Shown here one piece after another: positions 4,633 through 48,015 of a stretch of 64,000 nucleotides of DNA. The position numbers and the translations under genes were made by a program. The stretch lies in sequence record PZ445526.1. The stretch is one strand, 5' to 3'. A model generated the notes under the pieces. It did not search any database and was not told the origin of the DNA. It saw only the letters and a list, made by a program, of their open reading frames with translations. Position 1 is the stretch's first letter; every line of letters starts with the position of its first letter. This stretch comes from a phage.

Positions 4633-5196
4633 TTACCATTCCAATGCTAGTTTTTTGAGTTGTTTCTGTTCTTTTACGTTCTTAGTCACTTCTTTTAAAA
4701 AATCATCCGTGACTAAACCTTTTAGTTCTTTTAATACTAAAGGAAGTTTTCCATTTTTAGTAAGAATTGATTTATAGTTAATTGCATCATTTGTATTAAC
4801 TTGATACCGCTTAGCAAGTAACTTAATAATCAATACTTCGGTGGAATCTTCAACCAGTTTTGCCCATTTACCATATCTTTTACCACGAGGAACTGCAGCC
4901 ATCAGATAATTAAAATGAGCTTCATCACTTAAACCTGATCCAATTAAATTCATAGCATATACAGCTGGCATGCACTCTGGAAATTGTGATAATGCATTCT
5001 CAACCATGTATTTTGAATAATCTTTTTGAGCAATAGAGCATTTAGTTTTATTATTAATAGCTCCAATTATTTCAAAAAATTCATTTTCAGCTTTTTCTTT
5101 AAAAGAATCAGCAGCGGATTGGACAGCTGTCCAATCTTTTGAATACCAAGCAACTTGATGCTCGTTTAATTGAATATCATCTTCAAATAAGCTCAT
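4633..5196 (-). CDS. 62: clamp-loader small subunit
   Basis: Start at internal ATG ([18 protein letters not shown]...), 187 aa; overlaps gene 44 stop; T4 gp62-like. Confidence 0.85.
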
Positions 5197-5197
5197 A

Positions 5198-6157
5198 TCA
5201 CTTCCACTGCATTTCACATGCCAATTGAATGAAAAGATATGCTAAATGTAATTCAGTATTAGCTGCAATACCATGATACTGATTATTTTCACCAACAATT
5301 TCATACATACGAATAATACTTTGCGGAGTTACACGTGAATAGATTTCTTCGGCAAGTTTACCCACGAACCACGAATAATCAGCTGCATATTTTGGTGCTA
5401 AAGCTCTGAGTTGTTTAACATCTTTATTTTTGAGAGACTCAAGAACATCATCAATAGCACCACGATCGTTAGTAACCAGTGATAAAATACCAGCATCCAA
5501 AACACCTTTAGATGAATAACTATCGAGTTCGCCAATAGTTTTACGAAAATCAGGAAAATTCTTTTTAACCAAAGCTGCTACAACTTTCATATCAGCTATA
5601 GCAATTCCTTCATGCTTACAGATTTCAGTCAATCGACGAATCATCTGCTTCATCATTTCAATTTTATCTTCATCGGTCGGTTGACCGAATGTAATAACTC
5701 GGCAGCGTGACTGAAGAGGTTTAATAATACCATCAATATTGTTAGCAGTAATAATAATACTACAGTTTGAACTATAAGCTTCCATAAAGGAACGAAGATG
5801 TCGCTGAGACTCTGCTAATCCTGAACGGTCAAATTCATCAATAACGATTACTTTTTGACGACCATCAAATGAAGCTGCACTGGCAAAATTAGTCAAAGGA
5901 CCACGAACGAAATCAATTTTACAGTCTGATCCATTCACAAACATCATATCAGCATTTACATCATGACACAATGCTTTCGCTACAGTTGTTTTACCTGTTC
6001 CTGGAGAAGGAGAATGAAGAATAATATGTGGAATCTTACCTTTACTTGTAATAGATTTAAAGGTTTCTTTATCAAAGGCGGGAAGAATACATTCATCGAT
6101 AGTAGATGGACGATATTTCTGTTCAAGAATGTGTTCTTTTTCATTTACGGTAATCAT
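5198..6157 (-). CDS. 44: clamp-loader ATPase (AAA+)
   Basis: Start at internal ATG ([17 protein letters not shown]...), 319 aa; Walker A SPGTGKTT, Walker [12 protein letters not shown] motif; T4 gp44-like. Confidence 0.92.
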
Positions 6158-10900: not shown

Positions 10901-10917
10901 AAGGGCCGAAGCCCTTT
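10901..10917 (-). terminator. UUCG-tetraloop hairpin at the a-gt stop codon
   Basis: Minus-sense AAAGGGCUUCGGCCCUUU overlapping the a-gt stop, followed by a U-rich tract. Confidence 0.55.
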
Positions 10918-12118
10918 ATTTTGTAATAATGTCAAACTGTTCTTTAAAGCAGAAGCTTGAATCTTGGTGCTGATACAAAAATTCATATGCTTTTTCTCGC
11001 TCACGGTCATAAAGAGCTCGGTCAGATGACAGTTCTTTAATACGCTCGAGTGTTGATTCCATATCATTTTCATCAAACCAAATGATACCGCTATCATGCG
11101 AGGTCAAAGGAGTATTATCAACACGGAATTTTAAATTTTCGCCAGTAGATTTCCAAAATACCGGAATTGTTCCACATGCACCAAGCTCGAGATGAGTATA
11201 TTCTAAAGAACGTTGTAGATATTTTTTGTCCAACTTACTCAGCTGATAACCAAATCCGGATTTACTCATGCGTTCAAGCATTTCGCTATTTACATAACGG
11301 TCAAGAATTTGCGTTGGCAAATTAGGAGCAATTTTAATTTGGTCTACTTGATGAAGACGATAATACTCGTATGGAATTCCTTTTTCTTTAATAGGAATGA
11401 ACGCTGGAGAACGTTCCAGACCTTCCATAATAGTACTTAGTCCTGCAGGTTTAAGATGTTTTTCGTGAAAATCAAACATCTGGTAAAAACCTTTCCATGT
11501 AGTCGTACGACCAATCCAACGGTTGATATTCATGTTAATTTCAGAAACATCTTTCCAGTAGGTTGATCGAACCTTCGCAATATCCATAGGAGGCTGAAAG
11601 TTGTATACGGTCGGTGCTTCTTCAATATCATCAAACAGAGAAACTGTTTCTGGATACCATTCTTTCATCAAAACTTTATTAAAGTCACCATTATCAGAAT
11701 GGCTAAAAATAACATCAGCTCGACGAACAGTTTCTTCTAATCCCAAATTTCGACGCAAAGAAAGAGAAGAATGGTCATGTTGATAAACTACAACACGAAC
11801 CGAAGGTTTAATGTTATCAATAATTTTTTTATAGTTATTAATAGTGTCTTCTTCAACTGAAGTAGCAGGAACTGAATTGATAATTAGAATATCACAATCA
11901 TTTACCAGCTTAAGTGTTTTATCGTATTCTTTTGCCAATAAAACCGGAATTGAAAATGATTTATAATCATGTGCACAGTTACGAGTAAATGATTTATCTT
12001 TAGCATAAACCAAAGTTACTTCATGACCATTTTTAATAAACCAATCACGTTGCTCAAGAGAAAATTTAGTTACACCGCAACCTTCAAGACCTCGAGCCAT
12101 AAAAATACATACTTTCAT
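10916..12118 (-). CDS. a-gt: DNA alpha-glucosyltransferase
   Basis: 400-aa ORF MKVCIFMARGLEGCGVTKFSLEQRDWFIKNGHEVTLVYA...; closely resembles T4 alpha-glucosyltransferase as I recall it, same size and position after gene 47. Confidence 0.85.
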   Translation of the reverse strand: MKVCIFMARGLEGCGVTKFSLEQRDWFIKNGHEVTLVYAKDKSFTRNCAHDYKSFSIPVLLAKEYDKTLKLVNDCDILIINSVPATSVEEDTINNYKKIIDNIKPSVRVVVYQHDHSSLSLRRNLGLEETVRRADVIFSHSDNGDFNKVLMKEWYPETVSLFDDIEEAPTVYNFQPPMDIAKVRSTYWKDVSEINMNINRWIGRTTTWKGFYQMFDFHEKHLKPAGLSTIMEGLERSPAFIPIKEKGIPYEYYRLHQVDQIKIAPNLPTQILDRYVNSEMLERMSKSGFGYQLSKLDKKYLQRSLEYTHLELGACGTIPVFWKSTGENLKFRVDNTPLTSHDSGIIWFDENDMESTLERIKELSSDRALYDREREKAYEFLYQHQDSSFCFKEQFDIITK

Positions 12119-37622: not shown

Positions 37623-38096
37623 TTATTTGAACGATTTAACGTACTGAATAGAACCTTTACTATTCACAAAGGCAATTTTACCATTTTTGTTATACATGGT
37701 AGCAGTACGTTGATAACCGTAAGTTTGTTTACCAGATTGATAACCAACTAATGCGAAATTATCTTCACCCATTTTATTCTGCTTAGCACGAATGCGTTCA
37801 TGACCATGTGCCATAAGAACCTTAGCATCACCAGTTGCAATGGATCGACGAGTTTTTTCATCTTCAACTGTATTAACAAAGTCGTCAAATGAATCAAATT
37901 TAGCATGAGATTTATTATACAGTTTTCCATCTACTGCATAATTATATCCTTGTACATCCATCTCAACTTCTGTACCATCATCCAATACAGCAGTGATTTT
38001 TTGACCTTTTTTAAATTTCAAAAGATCAGTAAAAGATTCAGCAATAATTTGAGAATTAATAGCTGCTTCAGTAATAAATTCTTGATATGTTTTCAT
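37623..38096 (-). CDS. internal-protein-like gene with capsid targeting sequence (157 aa)
   Basis: N-terminus MKTYQEFITEA matches the T4 internal-protein capsid targeting sequence (prohead protease site after I/LxE); the payload is unlike T4 IPII as I recall it. Confidence 0.65.
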   Translation of the reverse strand: MKTYQEFITEAAINSQIIAESFTDLLKFKKGQKITAVLDDGTEVEMDVQGYNYAVDGKLYNKSHAKFDSFDDFVNTVEDEKTRRSIATGDAKVLMAHGHERIRAKQNKMGEDNFALVGYQSGKQTYGYQRTATMYNKNGKIAFVNSKGSIQYVKSFK

Positions 38097-38178: not shown

Positions 38179-38214
38179 TGCTTTTATTTATAAGCGTCCC
38201 AAGTATAAGCTTTA

Positions 38215-38796
38215 TTAAGAATTACCACGGGCTGCATTAGCAACGGCGTAAGCGTACTGAATATTAGCGTCTTTAAACTTACCTTTAGAGGTATCTATTT
38301 CTGCCTTAAAGCCGCCTTTAGTCATAACATCGGCAAATTCTTTACGGAAAGCCATTGCATCAAGACCTTTCCATGATGATTTATGCTTGGCAAATTCAAG
38401 ACCGGCAAAGTTAACAGCCTTAGCTAATTTATTATCAATAACCCATTTACCGGCTTTAGGCACAAACTTCGGACCTTTCTGTTTAGAGAACAGTTTTAAA
38501 TTCCAGCGGCGAAGGTCTGCATCAGCTTTAACAAATTCTGAGTCTAAGTTACTAGCAACAACATCTTCAATATGAGCAAATTTAAGTCCGTCAACTTCAA
38601 TATTTAAATCGGTACGCCAGCGAAGTCCTTCCCAAGCGAAGGCTTTAAAGTCGGAAGCCTTTGTAGCTAAGTACCGTTCAATAGGAGCTGTTTTAGGGTC
38701 AAAGCCGTTTCCCGATCGGTAGGTCCACTCATCTTTATTAATGCCTTTGGCCTTTACTACAGAAGCTTCAGCAATAAATTCTTGATAGGTTTTCAT
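38215..38796 (-). CDS. ipIII: internal protein III-like
   Basis: 193-aa ORF starting MKTYQEFIAEA (capsid targeting sequence); size and position as for T4 IPIII. Confidence 0.75.
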   Translation of the reverse strand: MKTYQEFIAEASVVKAKGINKDEWTYRSGNGFDPKTAPIERYLATKASDFKAFAWEGLRWRTDLNIEVDGLKFAHIEDVVASNLDSEFVKADADLRRWNLKLFSKQKGPKFVPKAGKWVIDNKLAKAVNFAGLEFAKHKSSWKGLDAMAFRKEFADVMTKGGFKAEIDTSKGKFKDANIQYAYAVANAARGNS

Positions 38797-43081: not shown

Positions 43082-43648
43082 TTATTTGCTTAGTTTAGTT
43101 ATTATAGCTTCTGCGGCAGCTTTTAGCTTAGATGCGGTGTTAATACGATTTTTAATTTCAGTATACGCATCGCCAAGAACATCAAGGCTATCAGAATAAA
43201 CACTTACACTATTGCGTTCGCTATTTGAAATAGAACCTTTAGTTTTACGATCAAAATCGGTGTATACGTCTTGAAGATCGCGTGCTGCCTTCTTTGCATC
43301 ATCCAATGCATCAAGAGCTTTATTCAAAGCATTAACGTATTTTTTAGTATCGAACATATTCTTAGAAATTTTAACAGGCGCACGTTCAGGAGTAGCTAAG
43401 GCAGATTTAGGAAGAACCTGTTTGCCAGATGCCAGTTTCTTAGAAATTTTGAAAAACGCTTTATTGAAATTATTTTCTTGACTCATCGTAAAAGAACTAT
43501 TATCAATGTTATACATTTCAATAGCTTTAGCTTTCCACTTAAGAAAATCGCCACGGTCTTTTGGGTCCAAGTGGAAGAATACTTTAGTAAGATCTGCTTC
43601 AGATGGTAATTTTGCTGCTTCGGTTAAAAATTCGGCATAGGTTTTCAT
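43082..43648 (-). CDS. internal-protein-like gene with capsid targeting sequence (188 aa)
   Basis: N-terminus MKTYAEFLTEA (capsid-targeting-like, LxE cleavage context); the payload is not recognized. Confidence 0.6.
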   Translation of the reverse strand: MKTYAEFLTEAAKLPSEADLTKVFFHLDPKDRGDFLKWKAKAIEMYNIDNSSFTMSQENNFNKAFFKISKKLASGKQVLPKSALATPERAPVKISKNMFDTKKYVNALNKALDALDDAKKAARDLQDVYTDFDRKTKGSISNSERNSVSVYSDSLDVLGDAYTEIKNRINTASKLKAAAEAIITKLSK

Positions 43649-44431: not shown

Positions 44432-44507
44432 TGGTCGAGGCAGTAGGGATCGAACCTACGACCCAGGACTTAGAAGGTCCTTGCTCTTCCTTCTGAGCTA
44501 TGCCTCG
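44432..44507 (-). tRNA. tRNA-Arg (UCU)
   Basis: Cloverleaf by hand: acceptor CGAGGCA/UGCCUCG, T-loop GUUCGAUCC, anticodon loop CUUCUAA, encoded CCA. Confidence 0.8.
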
Positions 44508-44511
44508 GATT

Positions 44512-44586
44512 TGGCGGACGTGATAGGATTCGAACCTATAACCAATCGCTTAACAGGCGATCGCTCTGCCATTGAGCTACACATCC
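44512..44586 (-). tRNA. tRNA-Asn (GUU)
   Basis: Acceptor GGAUGUG/CACGUCC (one G-U pair), D-loop with GG, anticodon stem AUCGC/GCGAU, loop CUGUUAA, T-loop UUCGAAU, encoded CCA; not part of the canonical eight T4 tRNAs as I recall them. Confidence 0.65.
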
Positions 44587-44590
44587 AAAT

Positions 44591-44677
44591 TGGTGGGGAG
44601 TGATGGAGTCGAACCACCCGAGTCGCAATGACAATGGATTTACAGTCCACACCGCTACCTCTACGGGATAACTCCCC
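44591..44677 (-). tRNA. tRNA-Tyr (GUA), long variable arm
   Basis: Acceptor GGGGAGU/ACUCCCC, anticodon loop CUGUAAA, 15-nt variable arm with its own stem, T-loop UUCGACU, encoded CCA; not part of the canonical T4 set as I recall it. Confidence 0.65.
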
Positions 44678-44687
44678 CAAATTAATT

Positions 44688-44762
44688 TGGTGGCCCTGGG
44701 TGGAATTGAACCACCATCTGGCGATTATGAGTCGCTTGCTTGAACCTTCCAGCTACAGGGCC
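44688..44762 (-). tRNA. tRNA-Ile (CAU; Met-type anticodon, likely lysidine-modified as in T4)
   Basis: Acceptor GGCCCUG/CAGGGCC, anticodon loop CUCAUAA, T-loop UUCAAUU, encoded CCA. Confidence 0.75.
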
Positions 44763-44763
44763 T

Positions 44764-44840
44764 TGGTGCTGATTGACGGAATCGAACCGCCGACCTTCTC
44801 ATTACAAGTGAGTTGCTCTACCTACTGAGCTAAATCAGCA
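44764..44840 (-). tRNA. tRNA-Thr (UGU)
   Basis: Acceptor UGCUGAU/AUCAGCA, anticodon loop CUUGUAA, T-loop UUCGAUU, encoded CCA. Confidence 0.75.
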
Positions 44841-44844
44841 AAAC

Positions 44845-44934
44845 TGGCGGAGGCGATAGGATTTGAACCTATGAGTCGCCGGAGCGACTGCCGGTTTTCA
44901 AGACCGGTGCATTAAACCACTCTGCCACGCCTCC
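44845..44934 (-). tRNA. tRNA-Ser (UGA), long variable arm
   Basis: Acceptor GGAGGCG/CGCCUCC, anticodon stem CCGGU/ACCGG with loop CUUGAAA, long variable arm, T-loop UUCAAAU, encoded CCA. Confidence 0.8.
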
Positions 44935-44936
44935 AG

Positions 44937-45010
44937 TCTCCGTGGCAGGATTTGAACCTACGACATTCTGCTCCCAAAGCAGACGCTCTACCAAACTGAG
45001 CTACACGGAG
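44937..45010 (-). tRNA. tRNA-Pro (UGG), CCA not encoded
   Basis: Acceptor CUCCGUG/CACGGAG, anticodon loop UUUGGGA, T-loop UUCAAAU; 3' end abuts tRNA-Ser (Pro-Ser dimer arrangement known from T4). Confidence 0.8.
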
Positions 45011-45020
45011 TAAATTAAAT

Positions 45021-45094
<74 letters not shown>

Positions 45095-45099
45095 AAATT

Positions 45100-45186
45100 T
45101 GGTGCGAGAAGTGGGACTCGAACCCACAAGGAAATCATTCCGCAGCATTTTAAGTGCTGTGCCTTTACCAATTTGACCATTCTCGC
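45100..45186 (-). tRNA. tRNA-Leu (UAA), long variable arm
   Basis: Sequence GCGAGAAUGGUCAAAUUGGUAAAGGCACAGCACUUAAAAUGCUGCGG...GGGUUCGAGUCCCACUUCUCGCACCA matches T4 tRNA-Leu as I recall it. Confidence 0.85.
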
Positions 45187-45187
45187 G

Positions 45188-45260
45188 CTGGGAATAAAGG
45201 ACTCGAACCTTTGCATCCTGGAATCAAAATCCAGTGCCTTACCAACTTGGCTAATTCCCA
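45188..45260 (-). tRNA. tRNA-Gln (UUG), CCA not fully encoded
   Basis: Acceptor UGGGAAU/AUUCCCA, anticodon loop UUUUGAU, T-loop UUCGAGU; directly abuts tRNA-Leu (Gln-Leu dimer arrangement). Confidence 0.8.
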
Positions 45261-46058: not shown

Positions 46059-46244
46059 TTATTCACCTTTAGAAATTTTATCCATAACGATAGCGATTAA
46101 ACCAATTAAAAATGCTACTACAAGTGAAAACACATTTTCTGCTGTAGTTAATAATCCGCATATAAATCCAGCAAACATTGAAAAACTAAAAGCGGAAGCA
46201 GAAATTGCAATAGCAACATTTCGAATTAATTCACAGCGTTTCAT
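46059..46244 (-). CDS. small membrane protein
   Basis: ATG at 46244 (MKRCELIRNVAIAISASAFSFSMFAGFICGLL...); the track ORF extends into the promoter from a non-ATG start. Confidence 0.45.
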   Translation of the reverse strand: MKRCELIRNVAIAISASAFSFSMFAGFICGLLTTAENVFSLVVAFLIGLIAIVMDKISKGE

Positions 46245-46273
46245 TTTATTCTCCTCAGTAGTTGATAGTGTAA

Positions 46274-46302
46274 TAGTATCACAACTAAAACCGCATGTAA
46301 AC
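46274..46302 (-). promoter_or_regulatory. T4-type early promoter (cassette copy)
   Basis: Sense GTTTACATGCGGTTTTAGTTGTGATACTAT plus leader ACACTATCAACTACTGAGGAGAATAAAATG. Confidence 0.55.
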
Positions 46303-46305
46303 AAT

Positions 46306-46530
46306 TTATTCAACACCAGCGGCTTTCAAAAGTTTCTTAAGATTGGCAACACCTTGAGCAGAAAATGTGACCTTGCCACCTTTTTCACTGATAGAACCAA
46401 CCAATTTAGCAAGTTTATCATTAGGAATTTTTTTAAAATCAGCCAATGTTCCATCAAAGGTTTTTGAAACAAAAGGCAGTTCATCTTCATGTCTTTTAGC
46501 TTCTACAATAAATTTTTGATATGTTTTCAT
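46306..46530 (-). CDS. internal-protein-like gene with capsid targeting sequence (74 aa)
   Basis: ATG at 46530: MKTYQKFIVEAKRHEDELPF...; capsid-targeting-like N-terminus. Confidence 0.55.
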   Translation of the reverse strand: MKTYQKFIVEAKRHEDELPFVSKTFDGTLADFKKIPNDKLAKLVGSISEKGGKVTFSAQGVANLKKLLKAAGVE

Positions 46531-46566
46531 TTTATTCTCCAATTTCACATTTGTTTTGATAGGGTA

Positions 46567-46596
46567 ATAGTATCACTACCCCATCTAAAAGTAAAC
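46567..46596 (-). promoter_or_regulatory. T4-type early promoter (cassette copy)
   Basis: Sense GTTTACTTTTAGATGGGGTAGTGATACTAT plus leader ACCCTATCAAAAC...GGAGAATAAAATG. Confidence 0.55.
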
Positions 46597-46606
46597 AGTT
46601 TATAAA

Positions 46607-46915
46607 CTATTTTATTCCGCGTGATGCAATTGTGTTCTGTCGTTTAACACCAGTTTGTTTAAAGTCATGATTGTCGATTTGATCGGTACGAGCAACTCCG
46701 AATGATGATTTGATCTTAGCTTTAGATCCTTTAGTTATAGAAATAAACATCTCAGAAGCCCCTTTCTTAAAGTCCGAGGCGATTACTTCAACGCCGTTCT
46801 TAGCAAGTGACTTCAGAATTGCCTCCGCGTATTCATCGTCAAGACTTGCCTGAGTATTAATAACGAATGTCTTTGGCGCAGCCGCTTCATTGATAAATTC
46901 TTTAAATGTTTTCAT
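46607..46915 (-). CDS. internal-protein-like gene with capsid targeting sequence (102 aa)
   Basis: N-terminus MKTFKEFINEA; basic, Lys-rich payload. Confidence 0.55.
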   Translation of the reverse strand: MKTFKEFINEAAAPKTFVINTQASLDDEYAEAILKSLAKNGVEVIASDFKKGASEMFISITKGSKAKIKSSFGVARTDQIDNHDFKQTGVKRQNTIASRGIK

Positions 46916-46945
46916 TTTATTTTCCTAATTAATTTTGATAGGGTA

Positions 46946-46975
46946 ATAGTATCACTACCCTATTTAAAAGTAAAC
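46946..46975 (-). promoter_or_regulatory. T4-type early promoter (cassette copy)
   Basis: Sense GTTTACTTTTAAATAGGGTAGTGATACTAT plus leader ACCCTATCAAAATTAATTAGGAAAATAAAATG. Confidence 0.55.
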
Positions 46976-47248
46976 TCATTTTAAATAAATTGCGTATTTT
47001 TTATAACCCGCTGACTCATGACGAAGACCCTTATCATTAGCAAAACGCTCAATGTTGTTAATTTGATTCTGATCAAGTTCAGAGATGTCAAACACGAAAA
47101 AGTTACGTTTGTTACCAACTGTTATATAGTCAGTTAAATCAATATCATATAGGTAATTGATGTCAGCAATCAAAGTCTTGACAGCTTTGCTAATTTTTAC
47201 TTTTTCGTTAAAAGCAGCTTCAGCAATAAATTCTTGATACGTTTTCAT
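46976..47248 (-). CDS. internal-protein-like gene with capsid targeting sequence (90 aa)
   Basis: ATG at 47248: MKTYQEFIAEAAFNEKVKISKAV...; identical first 11 residues to the ipIII-like gene. Confidence 0.55.
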   Translation of the reverse strand: MKTYQEFIAEAAFNEKVKISKAVKTLIADINYLYDIDLTDYITVGNKRNFFVFDISELDQNQINNIERFANDKGLRHESAGYKKYAIYLK

Positions 47249-47276
47249 TTTATTCTCCTCAGTAGTTGATAGGGTA

Positions 47277-47306
47277 ATAGTATCACTACTAAAACCCAGT
47301 GTAAAC
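47277..47306 (-). promoter_or_regulatory. T4-type early promoter (cassette copy)
   Basis: Sense GTTTACACTGGGTTTTAGTAGTGATACTAT plus leader ACCCTATCAACTACTGAGGAGAATAAAATG. Confidence 0.55.
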
Positions 47307-47318
47307 AACTTTGTGAAA

Positions 47319-48015
<697 letters not shown>

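What the first reader, a model, noticed from the sequence alone, without database searches (positions are those of the whole stretch)
46250..47320. Cluster of three internal-protein-like cassettes, each with its own promoter and a capsid targeting sequence
Three small genes (46306..46530, 46607..46915, 46976..47248) begin with MKTYQKFIVEA, MKTFKEFINEA and MKTYQEFIAEA, the T4 capsid targeting sequence ending in an (I/L)xE prohead-protease site, followed by unrelated payloads. Each is preceded by a near-identical early promoter plus leader. In T4 this locus holds ipI, whose product is injected with the DNA and blocks a host restriction system, so these payloads are candidate injected anti-defence proteins different from T4 IPI.
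Basis: partly seen in the sequence, partly recalled or inferred. Interest (0 to 1): 0.65.

Follow-up and report, generated by a model that had tools for sequence, protein, structure and literature searches.

The report
Known T-even internal-protein genes ip9, ip7, ip8
The three small genes are real, but they are the internal-protein genes ip9, ip7 and ip8 of T4-like phages, first described in 1994; their head-targeting tag and shuffling cassette layout are textbook, and only their targets in the host remain unknown.

Summary
On the minus strand lie three ORFs: 46976..47248, 46607..46915 and 46306..46530. Each starts with an 11-residue T4 capsid targeting sequence followed by an unrelated payload, and each has its own T4-early-type promoter. 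The cluster sits where T4 has ipI, between 57B (Acb1) and tRNA.4.

A survey of 40 related loci found 0 to at least 4 tagged cassettes at this site and at least 21 payload families. Junction comparison with RB32 places the ip5 and ip8 gain/loss breakpoints inside the repeated promoter.

Function is still open. T4 Ip1-3 each block one GmrSD type IV restriction enzyme, and a different cassette at this locus in phage Bas37 blocks McrBC. ip4-10 gave no reproducible inhibition of the GmrSD variants tested. Predicted folds for Ip7 and Ip9 are generic small alpha/beta domains.

Verdict: correct reading, already known, low novelty.

The parts
47319..47777 (-). Gene 57B (Acb1, anti-CBASS phosphodiesterase). 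It is the conserved upstream boundary of the ipI locus.
   Evidence: Pfam PF23474 Acb1, 202.7 bits. Same position as T4 57B.
47249..47318 (-). 57B/ip9 intergenic region with a T4-early-type promoter and leader. The -35 TTTACA is at 47305..47300 and the -10 TACTAT at 47282..47277, preceded by TG. The leader carries the SD GAGGAG.
   Evidence: Promoter scan. Repeat families D1/D3. 95% identical to the copy in front of tRNA.4. Aligns with the T4 ipI promoter.
46976..47248 (-). ip9: 90 aa, CTS MKTYQEFIAE|A. The mature product is predicted at about 80 aa with pI 8.2.
   Evidence: 87/90 identical to RB15 Ip9. phrog_7673 'internal head protein', E 3.6e-55. AF2 pLDDT 78, alpha/beta sandwich.
46916..46975 (-). 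ip9/ip7 intergenic promoter: -35 TTTACT at 46974..46969 and -10 TACTAT at 46951..46946. An 11-bp hairpin (46963..46938) overlaps the -10.
   Evidence: Alignment. RNA fold -12.7 kcal/mol, z -2.36. 90% identical to the ip8 upstream copy.
46607..46915 (-). ip7: 102 aa, CTS MKTFKEFINE|A. The mature product is predicted at about 92 aa with pI 9.65.
   Evidence: 102/102 identical to RB15 Ip7. phrog_2667, E 2.2e-41. AF2 pLDDT 68: ferredoxin-like core at residues 15-72 plus a conserved basic low-confidence tail.
46531..46606 (-). ip7/ip8 intergenic promoter: -35 TTTACT at 46595..46590 and -10 TACTAT at 46572..46567. A 12-bp hairpin (about 46585..46558) overlaps the -10.
   Evidence: Alignment. RNA fold -16.8 kcal/mol, z -2.92.
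46306..46530 (-). ip8: 74 aa, CTS MKTYQKFIVE|A. The mature product is predicted at about 64 aa with pI 9.6.
   Evidence: 74/74 identical to RB15 Ip8. phrog_8765 'internal virion protein', E 3.4e-25.
46245..46305 (-). Fourth copy of the promoter/leader repeat, in front of tRNA.4. It is the downstream recombination partner that bounds the cassette array.
   Evidence: Promoter scan 46301..46273. 95% identical to the copy in front of ip9. Junction analysis.
46059..46244 (-). tRNA.4: a 61-aa hydrophobic protein without a CTS. It is the conserved downstream boundary of the locus.
   Evidence: phrog_1692, E 5.4e-35. Same position in T4 and RB32.

Best explanation
The cluster is the ipI-locus cassette array of a Tequatrovirus (T4-like phage), carrying the previously named genes ip9, ip7 and ip8.

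Shown here:
- The proteins are 97-100% identical to RB15 Ip9, Ip7 and Ip8.
- Each begins with a complete T4 capsid targeting sequence.
- Each has its own copy of the promoter and leader that T4 uses for ipI and tRNA.4.
- Related phages differ by whole cassettes, and the ip5 and ip8 breakpoints fall inside the repeated promoter core.

Inferred from established T4 biology (Mullaney & Black 1996; Bair et al. 2007; Silas et al. 2025):
- The CTS takes each protein into the scaffolding core of the prohead.
- The prohead protease gp21 cuts after Glu10 (I-x-E).
- The small, basic mature proteins (about 64-92 aa) stay with the packaged DNA and are ejected into the next host with it. They are therefore present before any phage gene is expressed.

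Most likely role, also an inference: each is a stoichiometric protein inhibitor of one specific host defence that acts on incoming DNA. The likeliest target is a modification-dependent (type IV) restriction enzyme, because this phage encodes a DNA alpha-glucosyltransferase.

The repeated promoter, leader and CTS DNA also serves as the homology that lets cassettes be gained, lost and reordered by recombination between co-infecting phages.
For: Identity and synteny:
- 57B upstream and tRNA.4 downstream in RB32, G4498, 310Ecol104PP and T4. The RB32 annotation of Ip5 at this site reads 'replaces ipI'.

CTS: the critical residues 4, 7, 8 and 10 are present in all three (roles from PMC9026906).

Families: the PHROGs matched are annotated internal head/virion protein.

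Promoter:
- GTTTAC(A/T)-N17-TACTAT with TG.
- The same core precedes T4 ipI and tRNA.4.

Cassette behaviour:
- 0 to at least 4 tagged cassettes and at least 21 payload families in 40 related loci, with variable order.
- L036 has an identical 57B but a different cassette.
- The RB32 ip7/tRNA.4 junction equals the window's ip7/ip8 upstream half joined to its ip8/tRNA.4 downstream half, switching within GTGATACTATTACCCTATC. The window's 57B/ip9 junction equals the RB32 57B/ip5 upstream half joined to the ip5/ip9 downstream half.
- Near-identical Ip9 payloads carry three different CTS variants.

Anti-defence inference:
- Ip1, Ip2 and Ip3 each inhibit a distinct GmrSD enzyme (PMC12373910).
- bas37_0260, a cassette at the same locus in phage Bas37, inhibits McrBC (bioRxiv 10.1101/2025.11.20.689424).
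- The window encodes DNA alpha-glucosyltransferase (PF11440, 785 bits).
- The neighbouring gene is the anti-CBASS gene Acb1.
Against: - No experiment on Ip7, Ip8 or Ip9 was found that shows packaging, cleavage or injection. The original paper is not in the held library.
- ip4-10 gave no reproducible inhibition of the GmrSD variants tested. The apparent ip7/CLS_011 and ip8/CLS_018-019 effects failed to reproduce.
- There is no T4 late promoter (TATAAATA) inside the cluster. How enough protein is present during head assembly is therefore not explained by the sequence. Read-through from upstream late promoters, or persistence of protein made early, has to be assumed.
- Predicted folds are generic and suggest no target.
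Confidence: 0.8

Rival explanations
1. The proteins are mainly structural. They would be small basic DNA-associated head proteins that neutralise charge and help DNA packaging or ejection, with no specific host target.
For: - Mature forms are basic: pI 9.6, 9.65 and 8.2, with 12-15 Lys+Arg each.
- T4 heads hold about 1000 internal protein molecules, and their lysines contact DNA phosphates (PMC3012670).
- ip4-10 showed no reproducible anti-GmrSD activity.
Against: - A generic counter-ion role does not explain at least 21 unrelated payload families, presence/absence variation from 0 to at least 4 cassettes, or loci with none at all (L009, L010).
- Every internal protein with a known function is a specific restriction inhibitor.
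- Ip9 is only weakly basic, and its payload also exists without a CTS in unrelated phages.
Confidence: 0.1
2. The proteins act mainly as ordinary early cytoplasmic proteins made from their early promoters after infection. Under this view the CTS is incidental, kept because its DNA is part of the recombination repeat.
For: - Only early-type promoters and no late promoter lie in the cluster.
- The CTS DNA is contiguous with the repeated leader and is 25-29/33 identical between cassettes.
- Ip9-payload homologues lacking any CTS exist in other phages.
Against: - The four functionally critical CTS residues are kept in all six CTS ORFs of the window, while other positions vary.
- A 10-residue CTS alone is sufficient to package foreign proteins in T4 (PMC9026906). 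A protein carrying it will therefore be packaged if it is present during head assembly.
- tRNA.4 uses the same promoter and leader without any CTS, so the repeat does not force a CTS.
Confidence: 0.07
3. They are selfish or neutral cassettes that persist only because the promoter repeats make them mobile. They would have no current benefit to the phage.
For: The patchy distribution and frequent gain and loss by repeat recombination. One truncated Ip7::Ip9 chimera exists (P0014).
Against: - Payloads are well conserved across genera. Ip7 has 44 invariant columns across 12 clusters down to 67% identity, and Ip9 has 45 invariant columns.
- They are found in 108-284 phage records each.
Confidence: 0.03

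Closest known systems
[not shown]
   Same: - Proteins 97%, 100% and 100% identical.
- Same relative order ip9-ip7-ip8.
- Same locus between 57B and tRNA.4.
- Same promoter repeats.
   Different: RB15 and RB32 carry an additional ip5 cassette between 57B and ip9, and RB32 lacks ip8. The window's exact three-cassette arrangement is itself already present in vB_EcoM_G4498 and 310Ecol104PP.
T4 IPI/IPI* (Ip1), the injected inhibitor of the GmrSD type IV restriction enzyme of E. coli CT596
   Same: - Same genomic site.
- Same promoter core.
- N-terminal prohead-targeting propeptide removed at an (I/L)xE site.
- Small mature protein (PMC3012670).
   Different: - No sequence similarity of the payloads (best E 1.2 in a three-sequence database).
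- T4 IPI has a 19-residue propeptide (MKTFKEFTSTTTPVSTITE|A), whereas these three have the 10-residue IPII/IPIII-type CTS.
- No target is known for Ip7, Ip8 or Ip9.
T4 Ip2 and Ip3, and Bas37_0260 (injected inhibitors of other GmrSD variants and of McrBC)
   Same: CTS-tagged small proteins of Tequatrovirus. bas37_0260 sits in the very same 57B-tRNA.4 interval.
   Different: Unrelated payloads. bas37_0260 belongs to the 68-81 aa family 'F2' of my survey, which is absent from this window.
PeSL (promoter-early stem-loop) mobile regulatory cassettes of RB49/phi1 (Arbiol et al. 2010, PMC2839356)
   Same: A repeated early promoter plus a hairpin flanking small accessory ORFs. Recombination between copies adds and removes ORFs.
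   Different: By the authors' own statement, the T-even IP-associated elements are analogues, not homologues. They are built on T4-type early promoters, with weaker AT-rich hairpins that lack polyG/polyC stems.

Membership tests
T4-type internal proteins (CTS-tagged, prohead-packaged, gp21-processed, ejected with the DNA) | N-terminal ~10-residue capsid targeting sequence: aromatic residue at position 4 and Phe at 7 (targeting), Ile/Leu at 8 and Glu at 10 (gp21 processing) | tested here: met
   Ip9 has Y4 F7 I8 E10; Ip7 has F4 F7 I8 E10; Ip8 has Y4 F7 I8 E10. Residue roles are as summarised in PMC9026906.
T4-type internal proteins (CTS-tagged, prohead-packaged, gp21-processed, ejected with the DNA) | Gene lies in one of the variable IP loci of T-even genomes (here the ipI site between 57B and tRNA.4) | tested here: met
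   57B/Acb1 lies upstream and tRNA.4/3/2 plus the tRNA cluster downstream, as in T4 and RB32.
T4-type internal proteins (CTS-tagged, prohead-packaged, gp21-processed, ejected with the DNA) | Sequence identity with a named Ip protein | tested here: met
   87/90, 102/102 and 74/74 identical residues to RB15 Ip9, Ip7 and Ip8. PHROGs 7673, 2667 and 8765.
T4-type internal proteins (CTS-tagged, prohead-packaged, gp21-processed, ejected with the DNA) | Protein physically present in mature heads, with the propeptide removed by gp21 | not testable with these tools
   Needs virion proteomics. No such data for Ip7, Ip8 or Ip9 were found in the held literature. Gene 21 itself was not looked for in the window.
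T4-type internal proteins (CTS-tagged, prohead-packaged, gp21-processed, ejected with the DNA) | Protein is ejected into the host cell with the DNA | not testable with these tools
   Inferred by analogy with IPI-III and CTS fusions (PMC9026906).
IPI* (Ip1) family of GmrSD inhibitors | Sequence homology of the mature protein to T4 IPI* | tested here: not met
   blastp of T4 IPI* against the three payloads gave a best E of 1.2 over 9 residues.
Injected type IV restriction inhibitors (functional class: Ip1, Ip2, Ip3, Bas37_0260) | Demonstrated inhibition of a modification-dependent restriction enzyme | not testable with these tools
   The literature is negative so far. ip4-10 were tested against GmrSD variants with no reproducible effect (PMC12373910 Supplementary Fig. 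9). McrBC and other systems are not reported for Ip7, Ip8 or Ip9.
PeSL-like promoter/stem-loop shuffling cassettes | Repeated early promoter flanking each accessory ORF | tested here: met
   Four copies of GTTTAC(A/T)-N17-TACTAT, 74-95% identical over 58-68 aligned nt. This is a consensus match only; transcription was not measured.
PeSL-like promoter/stem-loop shuffling cassettes | Stem-loop associated with the promoter | tested here: inconclusive
   There are clear 11-12 bp hairpins over the -10 of the ip7 and ip8 copies (z -2.4 and -2.9). The ip9 copy is weaker (z -1.8) and the tRNA.4 copy has none (z -0.1).
PeSL-like promoter/stem-loop shuffling cassettes | Cassette gain/loss breakpoints fall within the repeats | tested here: met
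   Hybrid junctions in the window versus RB32 for ip8 and ip5. CTS variants are exchanged among near-identical Ip9 payloads.

The most novel reading that the evidence does not exclude
Ip7, Ip8 and Ip9 may be injected inhibitors of host defences outside the GmrSD variants already tested, for example McrBC-like or other early-acting systems.

The Ip9 payload is a small domain that also occurs without the head-targeting tag. The profile search found CTS-less forms, one of which I placed in a 44.5-kb phage (SHAK7858). It also occurs inside a large (755-861 aa) protein of Kuttervirus-type phages. That would make it a portable anti-defence module which T4-like phages converted to pre-loaded delivery by adding a 10-residue tag.
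Probability: 0.4. Interest if true: 0.45.

Novelty: already known. Interest (0 to 1): 0.15.

Why it matters
As a discovery it adds little. The genes, the tag, the cassette layout and the anti-defence hypothesis have all been in the literature since 1994-2010.

The practical value is as a reminder that Ip7, Ip8 and Ip9 still have no known target, even though their payloads occur in 108-284 of the 50,697 sequenced phage records. All four internal proteins whose function is known block type IV restriction enzymes. These three are therefore good, cheap candidates for target hunting, which is relevant to the host range of therapeutic T4-like phages.

The CTS-less relatives of Ip9 offer one small new handle on that question.

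Tried and rejected
- Pfam gave no significant family for any of the three. PDB sequence searches gave nothing below E 0.01.
- I looked for a T4 late promoter (TATAAATA, up to 1 mismatch) in the cluster and found no conserved one.
- I asked whether the McrBC inhibitor bas37_0260 is one of these three. It is not; it is a different cassette family.
- The genomic context of CTS-less Ip9 relatives from metagenomes consisted of short contigs of small unannotated ORFs and was uninformative.
- The first paper search on 'Ip7/Ip8/Ip9' returned only unrelated uses of the abbreviations.

Full report
**1. What is there**

The window is part of a Tequatrovirus (T4-like) genome read against the direction of most of its genes. 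On the minus strand, from high to low coordinates, lie:
- gene 1 (dNMP kinase);
- 57A;
- 57B (47319..47777, Pfam Acb1);
- three small ORFs at 46976..47248 (90 aa), 46607..46915 (102 aa) and 46306..46530 (74 aa);
- tRNA.4 (46059..46244), then tRNA.3 and tRNA.2;
- a block of ten tRNA genes.

T4 has the single gene ipI in the same interval between 57B and tRNA.4. The three ORFs begin MKTYQEFIAEA, MKTFKEFINEA and MKTYQKFIVEA. Beyond residue 11 they have no detectable similarity to each other, to T4 IPI*, to Ip5 or to bas37_0260.

**2. The tag**

Work on T4 IPIII is summarised in PMC9026906. It showed that the first 10 residues are sufficient for packaging into the prohead. Residues 4 and 7 matter for targeting, and residues 8 and 10 for cleavage by the prohead protease. 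All three ORFs have an aromatic residue at 4, Phe at 7, Ile at 8 and Glu at 10.

The same motif heads three more ORFs elsewhere in the window: 43082..43648, 38215..38796 and 37623..38096. It occurs nowhere else among 2594 Met positions in six frames. Chance is therefore excluded.

**3. The promoters**

Each ORF, and also tRNA.4, is preceded by GTTTAC(A/T), a 17-nt spacer, TACTAT with an upstream TG, and a Shine-Dalgarno leader.
- The core GTAGTGATACTATTACCCTATC is identical for the three ip genes.
- Whole upstream regions are 74-95% identical and fall into two classes: ip7 with ip8 (90%), and ip9 with tRNA.4 (95%).
- T4's own ipI and tRNA.4 promoters align with them.
- The ip7 and ip8 copies contain an 11-12 bp hairpin across the -10 (z -2.4 and -2.9). 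The ip9 copy is weaker and the tRNA.4 copy has none.

This fits the description by Arbiol et al. 2010 of 'PeSL-like', AT-rich stem-loop/promoter elements at the T-even IP loci. These are consensus matches and folds; no transcription data were available. No T4 late promoter lies inside the cluster.

**4. Identity**

- The window proteins are 87/90, 102/102 and 74/74 identical to RB15 Ip9, Ip7 and Ip8.
- The exact ip9-ip7-ip8 arrangement without ip5 is present in vB_EcoM_G4498 (96.6% DNA identity) and 310Ecol104PP (97.2%).
- All three fall in PHROGs labelled internal head/virion protein.
- By tblastn the payloads alone occur in 194 (Ip9), 284 (Ip7) and 108 (Ip8) phage records. These include phages of Escherichia, Shigella, Salmonella, Klebsiella, Enterobacter and Citrobacter.

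The finding is therefore a correct rediscovery of genes named in 1994.

**5. How the locus behaves**

I fetched 36 IMG/VR loci through 57B and added four GenBank loci.
- Between 57B and tRNA.4 there are from zero (L009, L010) to at least four (RB15) CTS-tagged cassettes.
- In all, 80 CTS ORFs fall into at least 21 unrelated payload families.
- Order varies: Ip8-Ip9, Ip7-Ip9, Ip9-Ip7 and Ip9-Ip7-Ip8 all occur.
- L036 has a 57B protein identical to the window's but a different single cassette.

Aligning junctions shows where exchange happens:
- The RB32 ip7/tRNA.4 junction follows the window's ip7/ip8 junction up to the promoter core GTGATACTATTACCCTATC. It then follows the window's ip8/tRNA.4 junction.
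- The window's 57B/ip9 junction is likewise RB32's 57B/ip5 upstream half joined to its ip5/ip9 downstream half.
- Near-identical Ip9 payloads carry the Ip9-, Ip7- or Ip8-type CTS in different phages (P0019, P0025, P0029). Exchange therefore also occurs within or next to the CTS.

This is the modular shuffling proposed by Repoila et al. and Arbiol et al., here seen directly for this window.

**6. Function**

Known facts:
- T4 Ip1 inhibits the GmrSD enzyme of strain CT596.
- Silas et al. 2025 showed that Ip2 and Ip3 inhibit two other GmrSD variants with no cross-protection.
- The same authors tested ip4-10 against further GmrSD classes. They found no reproducible effect; apparent ip7/CLS_011 and ip8/CLS_018-019 signals did not repeat.
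- A 2025 preprint shows that bas37_0260, a CTS-tagged gene at this same locus in phage Bas37, inhibits McrBC. I located that gene in MZ501089.1. It belongs to a different cassette family that is absent from this window.

The window encodes a DNA alpha-glucosyltransferase. Its DNA is therefore very probably glucosyl-hmC, the substrate class of such enzymes.

My best reading is that Ip9, Ip7 and Ip8 are packaged, cleaved after Glu10 and injected. Each probably neutralises one specific defence that acts on incoming DNA, with the target still unknown. Packaging, cleavage, injection and the anti-defence role are all inferences for these three proteins.

**7. Attempts to get at the targets**

- There were no Pfam or PDB sequence matches.
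- Homologue sets are narrow: 14 and 17 clusters in 5.8 billion proteins. Every cluster that carries a source name is from a T4-like phage; most carry no name.
- The AF2 model of Ip9 (pLDDT 78) is a two-layer alpha/beta sandwich.
- The AF2 model of Ip7 (pLDDT 68) has a ferredoxin-like core and a conserved, basic, low-confidence C-terminal tail.

An exhaustive profile search with Ip9 found only 14 representative clusters among 1.84 billion proteins. They include forms with no CTS and a domain inside an 861-aa protein. tblastn had already shown two such cases:
- a 72-aa CTS-less homologue (48.6% identity) in the 44.5-kb phage SHAK7858;
- a C-terminal domain (36.5% identity) of a 755-aa protein in the Kuttervirus phage aagejoakim.

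This suggests that the Ip9 payload is a module older than its T4-type tag. It does not reveal the module's activity.

**8. Verdict**

Interest is low. The remaining open question is which host systems Ip7, Ip8 and Ip9 act on.

Noticed in passing
window 43082..43648 (-): A 188-aa ORF with a full CTS (MKTYAEFLTEA) lies beyond the tRNA cluster, outside the ipI interval. PHROGs calls its family 'unknown function' (phrog_2280). Its payload is found in 165 phage records at 80% identity or more (164 of them at 95% or more). Every annotated record among the 14 listed calls it 'hypothetical protein'. It is probably an unannotated internal protein. Its upstream region lacks the promoter repeat.
   Followed up: partly
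window 38215..38796 (-) and 37623..38096 (-): This is a second internal-protein locus. It holds a 193-aa ORF (phrog_5341) and a 157-aa ORF (Pfam DUF7412, phrog_3155), both with a CTS. A canonical late promoter TATAAATA at 38185..38192 (-) precedes the 157-aa ORF, unlike the ipI-locus cassettes.
   Followed up: partly
L043 2507..2725 (OR594183.1 36600..36818); L044 467..2734 (MT074474.1 aagejoakim_85); P0033-P0043: Ip9-payload homologues occur outside T4-like phages. A 72-aa CTS-less protein sits in a 44.5-kb phage next to an excisionase/regulator gene. The domain also occurs within 755-861 aa proteins of Kuttervirus-type phages, next to structural genes. Only 14 representative clusters exist in 1.84 billion proteins.
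   Followed up: partly
P0014 (Escherichia phage OLB35, 77 aa): This is a chimeric protein made of an N-terminally truncated Ip7 fused in frame to the C-terminal 32 residues of Ip9. It is apparently a deletion between adjacent ip7 and ip9 cassettes.
   Followed up: no
alignment A3 rows P0019, P0025, P0029: Near-identical Ip9 payloads carry different CTS variants (MKTYQKFIVEA, and MKTFKEFINEA twice). These are the variants found on Ip8 and Ip7 in this window. The tag and payload have therefore been recombined.
   Followed up: partly
window 47084..47092 (-) in ip9 and 46384..46392 (-) in ip8: Both Ip9 (residues 55-57) and Ip8 (residues 47-49) contain an internal I-S-E, which fits the (I/L)xE prohead-protease site. 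Whether it is cut is unknown.
   Followed up: no
window 47319..47777 (-) and 10916..12118 (-): The ip cluster directly follows 57B, which is Acb1 (anti-CBASS). The window also encodes a DNA alpha-glucosyltransferase, implying glucosyl-hmC DNA.
   Followed up: yes
L036 (IMGVR_UViG_2974787500_000001) 5001..5843: A phage whose 57B protein is 100% identical to the window's carries a single, different cassette (family F2, the family of the McrBC inhibitor bas37_0260) instead of ip9-ip7-ip8.
   Followed up: partly
window 44432..45260 (-): The window has ten tRNA genes in one block, including Asn, Tyr and Met, where T4 has eight. There is no segB homing endonuclease ORF inside the cluster, unlike T4 and Bas37.
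   Followed up: no
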